Positions 28,443 to 29,731 of a stretch of DNA of 64,000 bases are shown in pieces (position 1 is the stretch's first letter; each line of letters starts with the position of its first letter). The notes below the pieces were generated by a model that had not been told where the DNA came from, made no database searches, and was given only the letters and a program-made list of their open reading frames with translations. Made by a program: the position numbers and the translations under genes. This stretch comes from Alphaproteobacteria bacterium (GTDB lineage: Bacteria > Pseudomonadota > Alphaproteobacteria > Bin95), in contig OZ219787.1 of NCBI GenBank assembly GCA_964291285.2, positions 1,248,001-1,312,000 of the forward strand, read 5' to 3'.

Positions 28443-28544
28443 GTTCCTGAGGGAAGAGGCATCCGGAGCCGCTTCCCCGGCGTTGCGCGGCGCCATTTTT
28501 GAAAACCACCGAGGGAGCCGACAGGAGAGCGACTGTGTTGTCGG

Positions 28545-29477
28545 TCAAGCTGTTTTCCACGGGGTTCGGTCTCTGAGGATAGCGTTGAGGATTGTGAGGA
28601 GCTTTCGTGTGACGGCGGTGAGGGCAGCCTTTTTGGTTTTTCCCTCCGCGATCAGGTGGCGATAGAAGCGTTTGAGGGTTGGGTTATGCCTGGAGGCGGT
28701 GAGGGCAGCCATGTAGAGGGTTGCGCGGACGTTGGCGCGTCCTCCCCATATGGTTCTCTTTCCGCGCATGGTTCCGCTGTCGCGGTTGAAGGGCGCGACG
28801 CCGACGAGCGCGGCGATGCGCCTTCGGCTGAGGGTTCCGAGTTCGGGGAGATCGGCGATCAGGGTTCGTGCGGTGGCGTCACCGACCCCGGGAACGCTTT
28901 TGAGGAGGTCCTCGGCCTGGCGCCATGCGGGGGATTTGCGGATCGCATCGCCGAGCTCGGTTTCGAGGTCGGAGAGTTCGCGTTGCAGGGTGGCGAGCAC
29001 GCGGTCGACGCTGCGGATCGTGCGACGGCTTGTGAGGCGCCTCCTGCGGTTTCTCTCCGCGGTCATCATCGCGACGATCTGGCGCCGCCGGGCGACCAGC
29101 TCGGCGAGCGCGCGGGCCTGCTCGTCAGGCACCGGACGGGGCTCGGGATGGACCGCCTCGGCGAACTGTGCGATCGCCGCCGCATCGAGGGCGTCGGTCT
29201 TGGCGAGCCGGCCGGTGGCGCGGGCGAAGTCCCGGATCTGGCGCGGGTTGACCACCGCCAATGGCAGGCCCGCCGCGCAGAGCGCCGCCGCGACCGTGAC
29301 CTCGAAGCCGCCCGTCGCCTCCAGCACCACGAGGGCAACCTCCAGCCCGCCCAGGCGCGCCGACAACTCTTCCAGGCCTTTGCCGTCGCGCGCGACGGCA
29401 AAGGCCTCCCCGGACGGGCGCAGATGCACGTCCAGACGATCCTTCGCCACGTCGATGCCAACGAATATCCGTTCCAT
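28545..29477 (-). CDS. IS110 DEDD recombinase/transposase
   Basis: [28 protein letters not shown]. Confidence 0.95.
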
Positions 29478-29645
29478 GTCCCGTCCTTGCAAATGCGGTC
29501 TCACACTGCGGACCAAGCGACTGTTCGGGTTCAAAGGAACAGCGGACGGGGAACCATGCTCTCCCGCGGTCTTCATAACCTGGGTGCTAGCGGTCTCCCG
29601 TCCGCTCCCGCTGTTGCGACTATAGCTGCAACAACGATCCGGAGA
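29478..29645 (-). ncRNA. putative IS110 bridge RNA
   Basis: 5' hairpin, target loop (stem 29541-50/29597-606) and donor loop; guides match element ends and flanks. Confidence 0.75.
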
Positions 29646-29731
29646 GATACAAGGTGCGTCCGCCGCCCCGCGCGCGCAATCAGGCGCACGAACCGCGCCG
29701 CCGCGAACGCGCGCCGGCGGGCGCGGGCGCA

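What the first reader, a model, noticed from the sequence alone, without database searches (positions are those of the whole stretch)
28528..29660. Complete IS110 bridge-recombinase system with readable guide-target matches
Seen on the minus strand: the circular junction would be ACAGTCG-CT-TGTAT. The non-coding end contains ACAGTCGCT (29516-24, exact donor-left match) and ATTTGCAAG (29486-94, complementary to CTTG). The reconstructed target is GACGCAC-CT-CTCCTGT. The target loop holds CTAGCACCC (29582-90, sharing GCACC) and GCGGGAGAG (29559-67, complementary to CTCTCC plus wobble pairs). Circularisation creates TTGACC-17-TATCTC. Established: this matches the IS621 bridge-RNA architecture. Inference: a compact 310-aa RNA-guided recombinase with its own target specificity (about GCAC-CT-CTCC); the class is known but this member may be new.
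Basis: partly seen in the sequence, partly recalled or inferred. Interest (0 to 1): 0.75.

Follow-up and report, generated by a model that had tools for sequence, protein, structure and literature searches.

The report
Compact IS110 bridge-RNA insertion sequence
This is an intact, recently active copy of a small jumping gene of the IS110 family that carries its own guide ("bridge") RNA; the class has been known since 2024, so this is a well-documented new member, not a new kind of system.

Summary
On the minus strand, window 28530-29651 plus one CT is a 1,124-bp IS110-family element. It encodes a 310-aa DEDD/Tnp recombinase (28545-29477). It has a 174-nt left end and a 15-nt right end. The genome holds 13 identical copies in different flanks (9 intact). 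A related species has the orthologous site empty, with exactly two bases between the flanks.

The left end has the IS621 bridge-RNA layout: a target loop and a donor loop, each with landmark A and G residues spaced as in IS621. The stems are supported by compensatory changes in 45 relatives.

- **Donor guides:** they match the element's own ends.
- **Right target guide:** it matches CT-CTCC in 13 of 13 right flanks.
- **Left target guide:** it matches only (G/A)CAC plus the first core base, and it mismatches the second core base.
- **Family test:** across 39 guide classes from other genomes, guides track flanks (0 of 5,000 permutations reach the observed match).

Not shown: RNA expression, circle formation and activity.

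This is a new member of a known kind, about 63% identical to the closest named IS and about 35% to IS621.

Side findings: a palindrome inside the gene that is maintained by compensatory changes, and three insertions of other ISs within the target-loop DNA.

The parts
29654..29660 (-). Left target half (flank, not part of the element): GACGCAC
   Evidence: The orthologous empty site in G002 has the same 7 nt.
29652..29653 (-). Core dinucleotide CT, left copy
   Evidence: Present at all 12 known left junctions.
29478..29651 (-). Left end, 174 nt: template of the bridge RNA (RNA position n = 29652 minus the window coordinate)
   Evidence: Identical in 9 intact copies. Model R1 scores 166.2 bits on each of them. 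Covariation on 45 relatives supports the fold.
29644..29649 (-). -10-like hexamer TATCTC of the junction promoter
   Evidence: It matches TATAAT at 3 of 6 positions. It is TAT plus three variable bases in 64 of 64 loci that show both canonical junctions.
29609..29636 (-). 5' stem-loop (n 16-43, 9 bp in this copy)
   Evidence: Predicted fold. Covariation is not informative here: 47.9% of cells paired, and the MAFFT alignment is poor in this stretch.
29542..29605 (-). Target-binding loop module: stem n 47-55/102-110 and n 57-60/97-101, with landmark A56, G61, A80 and G85
   Evidence: Helix 2 has 13 pairs, 11 with changes on both sides, and 97.1% of cells paired. The landmark A and G residues are invariant or at least 90% conserved.
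29582..29589 (-). Left target guide (n 63-70, UAGCACCC); effective match is G65-C69
   Evidence: It matches flank positions -4 to -1 plus core C. G65 can also wobble with the A seen at -4 in 3 sites. C70 faces the second core base and mismatches it.
29559..29565 (-). Right target guide (n 87-93, GGGAGAG), complementary to CT-CTCC(C/T)
   Evidence: 13 of 13 right flanks read CTCC followed by C (9) or T (4). Family-wide covariation supports it.
29557..29558 (-). Handshake guide of the target loop (n 94-95, CA)
   Evidence: C94 can pair with donor position 7 (G) but not with target position 7 (C). It is C in 69 of 69 relatives' insertions. The rule is from PMC11208158, section 11.
29478..29532 (-). 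Donor-binding loop module: stem n 120, 122-125 / 170-174; inner stem-loop n 138-144/148-155; landmarks A121, G126, A151, G156
   Evidence: Helices 4-6 have 90.2-100% of cells paired, with compensatory pairs.
29517..29524 (-). Left donor guide (n 128-135, ACAGUCGC), equal to the last 7 nt of the element plus core C
   Evidence: The same identity holds in 66 of 69 relatives' insertions; the other 3 have one mismatch.
29486..29494 (-). Right donor guide (n 158-166, AUUUGCAAG), pairing 2 + 4 nt with CT plus the first bases of the left end
   Evidence: The split pairing is fully Watson-Crick in 67 of 69 relatives' insertions. IS621 shows the same pattern.
29484..29485 (-). Handshake guide of the donor loop (n 167-168, GA)
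   Evidence: G167 can pair with target position 7 (C in 12 of 12 sites here) but not with donor position 7 (G). It is G in 68 of 69 relatives.
28545..29477 (-). Recombinase gene, 310 aa plus stop; catalytic D9, E53, D95, D98, S234-G235
   Evidence: PF01548 at 3.4e-24 and PF02371 at 4.2e-20. Aligned to IS621 chain 8wt6_A at E 1.5e-38.
29374..29407 (.). Perfect 34-nt palindrome inside the gene (codons 24-35), function unknown
28543..28548 (-). -35-like hexamer TTGACC, overlapping the TGA stop codon
   Evidence: TTGAC sits at the same distance from the CT in 69 of 74 parsed loci.
28530..28536 (-). Left donor half, ACAGTCG (the last 7 nt of the element)
28528..28529 (-). Core dinucleotide CT, right copy
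   Evidence: Present at all 13 right junctions.
28521..28527 (-). Right target half (flank): CTCCTGT
   Evidence: The empty site in G002 reads CTCCCGT.

Best explanation
Window 28530-29651 (minus strand) plus one CT is a complete IS110-group insertion sequence that most likely moves by bridge-RNA-guided recombination, as IS621 does.

**Proposed cycle**
1. Read-through transcription of an integrated copy gives a little recombinase and bridge RNA.
2. The element leaves as a circle whose right-end/left-end junction (ACAGTCG-CT-TGTAT) is the donor site. The junction also brings a -35 box (TTGACC, overlapping the stop codon) to 17 nt from a -10-like TATCTC. This should boost transcription of the roughly 175-nt bridge RNA and the gene behind it.
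3. Recombinase dimers bind the two loops of the RNA.
4. The donor loop holds the junction through ACAGUCGC (bottom strand) and AU...CAAG (top strand).
5. The target loop selects (G/A)CAC-CT-CTCC(C/T) through GCACC (bottom strand) and GGGAGAG (top strand).
6. One handshake base in each loop (C94 and G167) can pair with the partner DNA only after strand exchange.
7. The catalytic serine (S234) together with the DEDD site (D9, E53, D95, D98) exchanges strands next to the CT.

**Shown here:** the anatomy, the copies, the empty site, the structure covariation, and the agreement of guides with flanks and ends.

**Inferred by homology with IS621:** transcription, circle formation, protein-RNA binding and the chemistry.
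For: **The element and its copies**
- There are 13 copies at 100% identity, 9 of them full length. Flanks diverge exactly at the CT on both sides.
- The orthologous site in related genome G002 is empty. The left-flank match ends 2 nt before the right-flank match begins. The site reads GACGCAC, then CC, then CTCCCGT.

**The protein**
- It has the two IS110 Pfam domains.
- It hits the IS621 and ISCro4 structures at about 1e-38.
- D9, E53, D95, D98 and S234-G235 sit under IS621 D11, E60, D102, D105 and S241-G242 (residue roles from PMC11208158).

**The RNA fold**
- On 45 left ends, my structure has 82.3% of cells paired against 72.9% in shuffles. The covariation score is 0.295 against 0.136, reached by 0 of 500 shuffles. 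Sliding the partner columns gives at most 50.2% paired.
- Four A...G landmark pairs are spaced 5 nt apart, as IS621 A43/G48, A67/G72, A116/G121 and A150/G155 are.

**Guides against this genome's own sites**
- Right flanks read CTCC in 13 of 13, with C or T at +5.
- Left-flank position -1 is C in 12 of 12, -2 is A in 11 of 12, -3 is C in 11 of 12, and -4 is G or A in 11 of 12.
- 9 of 12 occupied sites fit (G/A)CAC-CT-CTCC(C/T), against 8 unoccupied sites with that motif in the genome.

**Guides across the family**
- I took one insertion from each of 39 guide classes. The right target guide matches its own flank at 5.1 of 7 positions on average, against 2.91 when flanks are permuted.
- The left target guide gives a matching run of 4.72 against 2.68. 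For both guides, 0 of 5,000 permutations reach the observed value.
- The left donor guide equals the right end in 66 of 69 insertions. The right donor guide pairs in 67 of 69.

**A model built from the family**
- A covariance model built from these left ends finds related RNAs directly upstream of recombinases only 40-42% identical: 78.3 bits and 30.5 bits.
- The -35 box is kept at a fixed distance from the CT in 69 of 74 parsed loci.
Against: **No direct evidence of function**
- No RNA run holds the element.
- Only assembled contigs were available, and they showed no circle junction.

**The junction promoter is weak by E. coli rules**
- It scores 5 of 6 at -35 and 3 of 6 at -10.
- It would fail the scan tool's criteria. 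That tool finds no promoter-like site in or beside the integrated copy.

**The left target guide is short and irregular**
- It gives only 5 contiguous matches.
- It places C opposite the second core base, although core pairing is 'strongly preferred' in IS621 (PMC11208160).
- Its register seems to shift by one base in the 93%-identical sister element (L055/L056) and in 6 of 44 guide classes.

**Other weak points**
- 3 of 12 occupied sites have one mismatch in the 4-nt left match.
- One pair of the donor-loop outer stem is an A-A mismatch in this copy.
- The 5' stem-loop gets no covariation support from my alignment.
- Rfam has no family that matches the region.
Confidence: 0.9

Rival explanations
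1. The element is a genuine IS110/bridge-RNA element but no longer moves. On this view the copies are a past burst, and the guide irregularities (C opposite the second core base, an A-A mismatch in the donor-loop stem) reflect decay or weak activity.
For: - There is no circle junction and no expression data.
- The left target guide mismatches the core.
- There is an A-A mismatch at n 122/173.
- 4 of 13 copies are interrupted by other ISs.
Against: - All 13 copies are 100% identical, with intact ORFs. That argues for very recent spread.
- The same core-mismatch variant recurs in 6 of 44 guide classes. Among them are elements with several copies at matching sites.
- About half of the perfect target sites in the genome are already occupied: 9 occupied against 8 free.
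Confidence: 0.07
2. The guide-like matches are coincidence, and the left end is only a structured 5' leader that regulates translation of the transposase. Target choice would then be made by the protein alone.
For: - The donor-loop 3' stem and the right donor guide overlap the ribosome-binding region, 6-10 nt before the ATG.
- The palindrome in the early coding region points to extra RNA-level control.
Against: - Guides co-vary with flanks across 39 classes; 0 of 5,000 permutations reach the observed match.
- Donor guides follow changes in the element ends. Three end types are seen, and the guide equals the end in 66 of 69 insertions.
- The architecture and the landmark residues equal those of the experimentally proven IS621 RNA.
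Confidence: 0.02
3. It is an IS1111-group element guided by a seeker RNA encoded at its 3' end, or a domesticated Piv-like invertase rather than a transposable element.
For: It belongs to the same DEDD protein superfamily.
Against: - The right end is only 15 nt between the stop codon and the CT. That leaves no room for a 3' RNA.
- No terminal or long subterminal inverted repeats pair the two ends.
- There are 13 copies in unrelated flanks.
Confidence: 0.01

Closest known systems
IS621 of Escherichia coli (IS110 group), the bridge recombinase with its bridge RNA (PMC11208160 and PMC11208158; passages and named sections read)
   Same: - RuvC-like DEDD domain, coiled coil and Tnp domain, with all five catalytic residues aligned.
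- The bridge RNA is encoded in the left end, with the target loop 5' of the donor loop.
- The four flipped-A / syn-G landmarks have the same 5-nt spacing.
- The left guides read like the top strand, and the right guides are complementary to it.
- CT core.
- The right donor guide pairs 2 + 4 nt across a 3-nt gap.
- One handshake base follows each right guide.
- The -35 box lies in the right end and the -10 box in the left end.
- The preferred target is a repeated intergenic element.
   Different: - About 35% identity (107 identical letters, counted by hand on the HMMER midline over query residues 4-307).
- 310 aa, against a Tnp domain that runs to residue 326 in IS621.
- Left end 174 nt against 191 bp.
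- Right end 15 nt against about 107 bp (298 minus 191).
- Here the -35 box overlaps the stop codon.
- Right target guide of 7 nt against 4.
- Left target guide effectively 5 nt with the second core base unpaired, against 9 nt.
- The target motif differs.
ISMno7-family and ISMex17-family elements of Methylobacterium / Methylorubrum (PGAP labels on plasmid records NC_011887, NC_011892 and NZ_AP014814)
   Same: These are the closest named IS labels found. Identity is 62.6% (residues 4-308) and 52.9%. The Methylobacterium loci in my set (L119, L131, L134) show the same end and loop architecture.
   Different: Identity is far below what would make it the same IS. The guides and targets differ. I could not consult ISfinder, so an unlisted closer named element cannot be excluded.
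ISCro4 transposase (PDB 9t56)
   Same: Full-length sequence match at E 2e-38.
   Different: Distant in sequence.
ISPpu10 / ISPpu9 of Pseudomonas putida (abstract of 10.64898/2026.03.19.712850 read; PMC12288879 seen in a search listing only)
   Same: These are IS110 elements that insert into copies of one repeated intergenic sequence. For ISPpu10 the target carries a GC-rich stem-loop 5' of the site. At least 5 of the 13 insertions here lie in one repeat family that has a GC-rich hairpin about 20 nt 5' of the core.
   Different: The other insertions here lie in unrelated sequence without that hairpin, so it is not required. No experiment was done here.
IS1111 group with seeker RNA (10.1101/2024.04.26.591405, search listing only; described in PMC11208160 section 12)
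   Same: DEDD/Tnp recombinase and RNA-guided site choice.
   Different: IS1111 elements have a long right end and 7-17-bp subterminal inverted repeats. This element has a 15-nt right end and no such repeats.

Membership tests
IS110 family, IS110 group (bridge recombinase elements) | N-terminal RuvC-like DEDD domain | tested here: met
   PF01548 at 85.8 bits against a cut-off of 29. D9, E53, D95 and D98 align with IS621 D11, E60, D102 and D105 (the PDB chain numbering is +2).
IS110 family, IS110 group (bridge recombinase elements) | C-terminal Tnp domain with the catalytic serine followed by glycine | tested here: met
   PF02371 at 72.4 bits against a cut-off of 21.3. S234-G235 lies under IS621 S241-G242.
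IS110 family, IS110 group (bridge recombinase elements) | No terminal inverted repeats, and a 2-nt core present at both junctions instead of a longer duplication | tested here: met
   None of the 25 longest of 79 inverted pairs joins the two ends. CT is present at 12 of 12 left and 13 of 13 right junctions. The empty orthologous site has exactly 2 nt between the flanks.
IS110 family, IS110 group (bridge recombinase elements) | Long non-coding left end and short right end | tested here: met
   174 nt against 15 nt.
IS110 family, IS110 group (bridge recombinase elements) | The left-end RNA folds into two internal-loop modules with conserved flipped-A and syn-G landmarks | tested here: met
   Covariation supports the target-loop and donor-loop stems. 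A56/G61, A80/G85, A121/G126 and A151/G156 are invariant or at least 90% conserved. Each pair is 5 nt apart, as in IS621. That these bases are flipped out or in syn conformation is inferred, not observed.
IS110 family, IS110 group (bridge recombinase elements) | Target-loop guides match the target, and donor-loop guides match the joined ends, with the core included | tested here: met
   One exception: the left target guide does not pair with the second core base (C instead of U). This variant is seen in 6 of 44 guide classes.
IS110 family, IS110 group (bridge recombinase elements) | [quoted passage not shown] | tested here: inconclusive
   TTGACC, 17 nt, TATCTC scores 5 of 6 and 3 of 6. The -35 box and its spacing are conserved in 69 of 74 loci. 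The -10 is weak, and its conservation is confounded because the same bases are the right donor half. No transcript data exist.
IS110 family, IS110 group (bridge recombinase elements) | RNA-dependent recombination of donor and target; circular intermediate | not testable with these tools
   Only contigs of public runs were available. They show no joints, and no RNA run is listed.
IS1111 group (seeker RNA at the 3' end) | Long right end that encodes the RNA, and subterminal inverted repeats of 7-17 bp | tested here: not met
   The right end is 15 nt. No such repeats were found.
Rfam RNA families | A match at or above a family's gathering score | tested here: not met
   The best match is sX15 on the opposite strand, at 28.1 bits against a gathering score of 55. 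I found no bridge-RNA family among the matches.

The most novel reading that the evidence does not exclude
This clade may use a target-loop geometry not described for IS621. Specificity would rest on a 7-nt right target guide and the handshake base. The left target guide would pair with only 4-5 bases, leave the second core base unpaired, and be able to slip by one base between close relatives.

The element may also carry a second, undescribed RNA- or DNA-level control: the perfect 34-nt palindrome in codons 24-35. In 19 of 81 relatives it is kept by compensatory changes, some at the cost of amino-acid replacements. It could set the 3' end or the stability of the bridge-RNA transcript, or throttle translation of the recombinase.
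Probability: 0.25. Interest if true: 0.55.

Novelty: new member of a known kind. Interest (0 to 1): 0.35.

Why it matters
**What it does not change.** Bridge-RNA-guided IS110 elements were described in 2024, and that work analysed diverse natural orthologues by covariation. I could not check whether this element was among them. This element adds no new principle.

**Why this copy is still useful.**
- It is a clean natural example: very small (1,124 bp, 310 aa, -35 box inside the stop codon) and from a 68% GC host.
- It has 13 identical copies, which give a ready-made map of on-target and near-target sites.
- It has a target repeat family whose core dinucleotide varies naturally.
- It sits in a dense set of relatives with different guides. 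That makes it a convenient system for studying how far the left guide and core pairing can be relaxed.

**Candidate for engineering.** It is also a compact candidate recombinase.

**Open lead.** The intragenic palindrome is the one feature I could not place in what I read. It is cheap to test.

Tried and rejected
- **Rfam.** Nothing reached a gathering score in the element or in an empty copy of the target repeat. The sX15 hit (E 0.03, opposite strand) is most likely noise.
- **Public runs.** No RNA holder is listed. All four runs I laid (X1, X2, X4, X5) are contigs. They show no joints, so there is no evidence either way on a circle junction. Contigs break at 28524 and 29654-29656. Loose ends there carry the flanks of other copies, which fits the boundaries. 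The depth ratios of element body to flank (1705.9 to 109.8 and 473.3 to 43.5) are not copy numbers by the tool's own warning, and I do not use them.
- **Promoter scan of the integrated copy.** It found 0 promoter-like sites. The junction cannot be scanned, because it is not contiguous in the window.
- **5' stem-loop.** My MAFFT alignment is not structure-aware there. It gives 47.9% of cells paired, so I make no covariation claim for that helix.
- **Extra GC in the right target guide.** Flank positions +6 and +7 fit them in 10 of 13 sites each, allowing wobble. In other guide classes these positions rarely fit. The G is the invariant landmark base. I therefore treat the fit as probably due to the repeat family.
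- **Core dinucleotide as a natural experiment.** The genome has 210 unoccupied (G/A)CAC-NN-CTCC(C/T) sites with a non-CT core, many in the repeat family (34 with GT), and 8 with CT. All occupied sites show CT. The element brings its own CT, so the original core of occupied sites is not directly known. I give this as consistent, not as proof.
- **Complementarity of the right junction to the target-loop 5' stem strand (19 of 24).** Imperfect inverted repeats of similar length occur elsewhere in the element. I rate this as possibly chance.
- **First pass of the class count.** My regular expression misfiled 15 classes that end in CTGGGG or CTGGGT. I re-read the printed rows by eye to get 32 canonical, 6 shifted and 6 without CT, out of 44.
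- **Things I could not see.** Supplementary files of papers are closed. Supplementary Data 2 and the tables of PMC11208160, which list natural orthologues and their guides, might already contain this element or its clade. ISfinder cannot be queried here.
- **Literature on an intragenic palindrome in IS110 genes.** One search (listing only) and a term search of PMC11208160 found nothing relevant. This is not proof that it is unpublished.
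Full report
**What is there**

Read on the minus strand, the region has this order:
- flank GACGCAC;
- CT;
- a 174-nt non-coding left end that starts TGTATC (29651-29478);
- a 310-codon ORF (29477-28545);
- 15 more bases ending ACAGTCG;
- CT;
- flank CTCCTGT.

The longer 428-aa frame listed is an upstream read-through into the flank. Homologues and the alignment to IS621 start at the ATG at 29477. An AAGGA sits 6-10 nt before that ATG.

The protein has the two Pfam domains of IS110 transposases: PF01548 at 3.4e-24 and PF02371 at 4.2e-20. 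Its only relatives among solved structures are the IS621 transposase (8wt6, E 1.5e-38) and the ISCro4 transposase (9t56, 2e-38). In that alignment D9, E53, D95, D98 and S234-G235 lie under the IS621 residues that the structure paper names as the DEDD site and the catalytic serine-glycine (PMC11208158 passages; the PDB chain is numbered +2).

**It is a mobile element with exact boundaries**

The window's own genome has 5 contigs, 6.13 Mb and 68% G+C. It holds 13 copies at 100% identity:
- 9 are full length;
- 3 are split by other insertion sequences;
- 1 lacks its first 62 bases.

All 13 recombinase frames are open. Flanks differ from copy to copy and diverge exactly outside the CT on both sides.

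In a related species (G002) the orthologous site is empty. The left-flank match (80.5% over 185 nt) ends two bases before the right-flank match (91.0% over 245 nt) begins. The site reads GACGCAC, then CC, then CTCCCGT. So the element is 1,124 bp counting one CT. No inverted repeats pair the two ends.

**The left end has the bridge-RNA architecture**

I fetched 80 loci that encode relatives at 61-93% identity. Of 74 loci that could be parsed (the window included):
- 69 have TTGAC, 14 bases and CT at the right end;
- 69 have CT followed by TGTAT at the left junction;
- 64 have both.

I aligned 45 distinct left ends and wrote a structure by analogy with the published description of the IS621 RNA (PMC11208158 section 7). 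It has a 5' stem-loop, then a target-binding module, then a donor-binding module. In each module an outer stem opens into an internal loop that contains a small stem-loop.

Counted on the alignment:
- 82.3% of cells pair, against 72.9% in shuffles and at most 50.2% when partner columns are slid;
- the covariation score is 0.295 against 0.136, reached by 0 of 500 shuffles;
- the target-module stem has 13 pairs, 11 with changes on both sides, and 97.1% paired;
- the three donor-module helices are 90.2-100% paired.

The 5' stem-loop is not supported (47.9% paired), which I put down to the alignment.

Four A residues (n 56, 80, 121, 151) each lie 5 nt before a G (n 61, 85, 126, 156). All eight are invariant or at least 90% conserved. 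IS621 has flipped-out A43, A67, A116 and A150 and syn G48, G72, G121 and G155 at the same spacing.

Rfam has nothing for this RNA. I built a covariance model from the alignment. In this genome it finds:
- the 9 intact copies at 166.2 bits each;
- the interrupted copies at 99.6-130 bits, and two of their detached 5' pieces at 25-29.2 bits;
- one orphan target-loop fragment.

It also finds related RNAs directly upstream of recombinases only 40-42% identical (78.3 and 30.5 bits).

**Guides**

By the rule in PMC11208160 section 7, left guides read like the top strand and right guides are complementary to it, core included.

*Donor loop.*
- n 128-135, ACAGUCGC, equals the last seven bases of the element plus the core C. 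These are the only two copies of the 9-mer in the window.
- n 158-166, AUUUGCAAG, pairs CAAG with CTTG and AU with the AT further in. IS621 shows the same 2 + 4 split pairing.
- Across relatives, the left donor guide equals the right end in 66 of 69 insertions, following three different end types. The right donor guide pairs fully in 67 of 69.

*Target loop.*
- n 87-93, GGGAGAG, is complementary to CT-CTCCC.
- All 13 right flanks read CTCC followed by C (9) or T (4, a G-T wobble).
- The left guide (n 63-70) matches only through GCACC, that is flank -4 to -1 plus the first core base.
- Flank position -1 is C in 12 of 12, -2 is A in 11, -3 is C in 11, and -4 is G in 8 and A in 3 (wobble with G65).
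- C70 faces the second core base and cannot pair with it.

*Handshake bases.* The base after each right guide follows the handshake rule of PMC11208158 section 11.
- C94 can pair with donor position 7 (G) but not with target position 7 (C).
- G167 does the reverse.
- These bases are C in 69 of 69 and G in 68 of 69 relatives' insertions.

**More than chance**

I took one insertion from each of 39 guide classes from other genomes and from this one.
- The right target guide matches its own right flank at 5.1 of 7 positions on average, against 2.91 (sd 0.16) when flanks are permuted among classes.
- The left guide gives a matching run of 4.72 against 2.68 (sd 0.16).
- In both cases 0 of 5,000 permutations reach the observed value.

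**Target landscape**

- 9 of the 12 copies with a known left flank sit in (G/A)CAC-CT-CTCC(C/T). The other 3 have one mismatch in the left match.
- The genome has 8 further, unoccupied sites with that motif, and 13 with GCACCTCTCC.
- At least 5 insertions lie in one repeat family of about 34 copies, which carries a GC-rich hairpin about 20 nt 5' of the site.
- In that family the two core positions vary (GT, TT, CC, CT). All occupied members show CT.
- This is reminiscent of REP targeting by IS621 (PMC11208160) and of the ISPpu10 stem-loop target (abstract). Other insertions here lack the hairpin.

**How it most likely works**

By homology with IS621:
1. Low read-through transcription of integrated copies supplies RNA and protein for excision (PMC13626964 section 5).
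2. The circle joins the -35 box TTGACC, which overlaps the TGA stop, to TATCTC at 17 nt. The bridge RNA then brings the junction and a target together for serine-mediated strand exchange next to the CT.
3. Sites with a weak left match fit the 'half-match' off-target behaviour reported for IS621 (abstract of 10.64898/2026.08.31.748434).

None of these steps is observed here. No RNA run is listed, and the public runs are contigs without joints.

**What does not fit neatly**

- The -10 hexamer is weak, and no promoter-like site is found in the integrated copy.
- The left guide is short. Its lack of a U opposite the second core base is a minority state: 6 of 44 guide classes, with 6 more carrying the CT one base further 5' and 32 canonical (with my re-reading of rows that the script misfiled).
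- In the 93%-identical sister element (L055/L056) the best register is shifted by one base.
- I cannot say whether this reflects real flexibility of the loop or imperfect sites.

**Comparison and novelty**

- The element works like IS621. It meets every membership feature that I could test for the IS110 group, and it fails those of the IS1111 group.
- The closest named labels are the ISMno7 family (62.6%) and the ISMex17 family (52.9%) on Methylobacterium and Methylorubrum plasmids.
- The protein family is very large in metagenomes: 8,000 candidates were scored, all at E of 1e-20 or better.
- The genome has one other IS110-family gene, at C2:1200311.
- It is therefore a new member of a known kind. 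Its compactness and its right-guide-heavy recognition are the only unusual traits of the system itself.

**Seen in passing**

1. **Palindrome in the gene.** A perfect 34-nt palindrome lies at 29374-29407 (codons 24-35). It folds at -31.8 kcal/mol as RNA.
   - It recurs at the same place in 19 of 81 loci, as 11 different sequences.
   - Changes are mirrored on both arms, and some alter the protein: K/E with TTT/TTC, D/N/H with GTC/GTT/GTG, and A/S with GGC/GGA.
   - It holds the gene's only TTT among 7 Phe codons.
   - 60 of 81 loci lack it.
   
   This points to selection on the nucleic acid. I found no description of it.
2. **Other ISs in the target-loop DNA.** Three independent insertions fall within a 30-bp stretch of the target-loop DNA, in 4 of the 13 copies. 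The inserted elements are of the Mutator/IS256 type, the Transposase_29 type and the DDE_Tnp_1 type, all abundant in this genome.
3. **Orphan fragment.** An orphan target-loop fragment with other guides lies at G000:C1:7926-7987.

Noticed in passing
window 29374-29407 (inside the recombinase gene, codons 24-35): A perfect 34-nt zero-loop palindrome. It recurs at the same position in 19 of 81 related loci, as 11 distinct sequences with arms of 12-20 nt. Changes are compensated on both arms, and some replace amino acids (K/E, D/N/H, A/S). 60 of 81 loci lack it. As RNA it folds at -31.8 kcal/mol. Its function is unknown. Possibilities are a 3' protective or processing hairpin for a transcript that contains the bridge RNA, a brake on translation, or a DNA cruciform.. 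It also explains the 'mir-4776' noise hit and the 34-nt self-matches.
   Followed up: partly
G000:C3:1142108-1143558, C3:1703455-1706995, C2:1145259-1147405 (other copies of the element; element positions 47-77): Three independent insertions of other ISs fall within a 30-bp stretch of the target-loop DNA. The first is of Mutator/IS256 type: 1,451 bp, 9-bp duplication, about 25 copies in the genome. The second is a composite of a Transposase_29-type element (2,485 bp) and a 1,028-bp element, with a 5-bp duplication. The third is of DDE_Tnp_1 type, with a 6-bp duplication and about 52 matches. A fourth copy (C2:1295741) shares the third junction and has lost its 5' part. The gene and both ends stay intact, so these copies could still be moved in trans. 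I did not resolve whether the clustering is a hot spot or chance.
   Followed up: partly
G000:C1:7926-7987 (minus strand; outside the window): An orphan fragment shaped like a target-binding loop. It covers model R1 positions 47-109 at 40.7 bits (E 2e-8) and is 81% identical to the element over 74 nt. It carries different guide bases, has no donor loop and has no recombinase gene behind it. It is probably a relic of a related element.
   Followed up: partly
window 29654-29800 and 28400-28527; a further partial copy at about window 30705-30777; about 34 copies in G000: The flanks of this copy belong to a repeat family at about 75-88% identity that is also widespread in the genus. It has a GC-rich hairpin about 20 nt 5' of the insertion point. 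Its conserved right part (CTCCCGTCCG...) ends in a T-rich run. The two bases at the core position vary among copies (GT, TT, CC, CT). There is no Rfam match..
   Followed up: partly
window 28508-28531 versus 29591-29614: The right junction (end of the element, CT and the first 20 nt of flank) is 19 of 24 complementary to the 5' strand of the target-loop stem. Equivalently, the target's right side resembles the 3' strand of that stem (8 identical bases). This could be chance, since the element has other imperfect inverted repeats of similar length. It could also hint at extended target recognition..
   Followed up: no
L055 / L056 (G012, 93% identical sister element) and 6 of 44 guide classes: The register between the left target guide and the core differs by one base between close relatives. 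In 6 classes, this one included, the guide has C or G rather than U opposite the second core base..
   Followed up: partly
G000:C2:1200311-1200754: A 14th, different IS110-family DEDD domain in the genome (86.9 bits). I did not examine it further..
   Followed up: no
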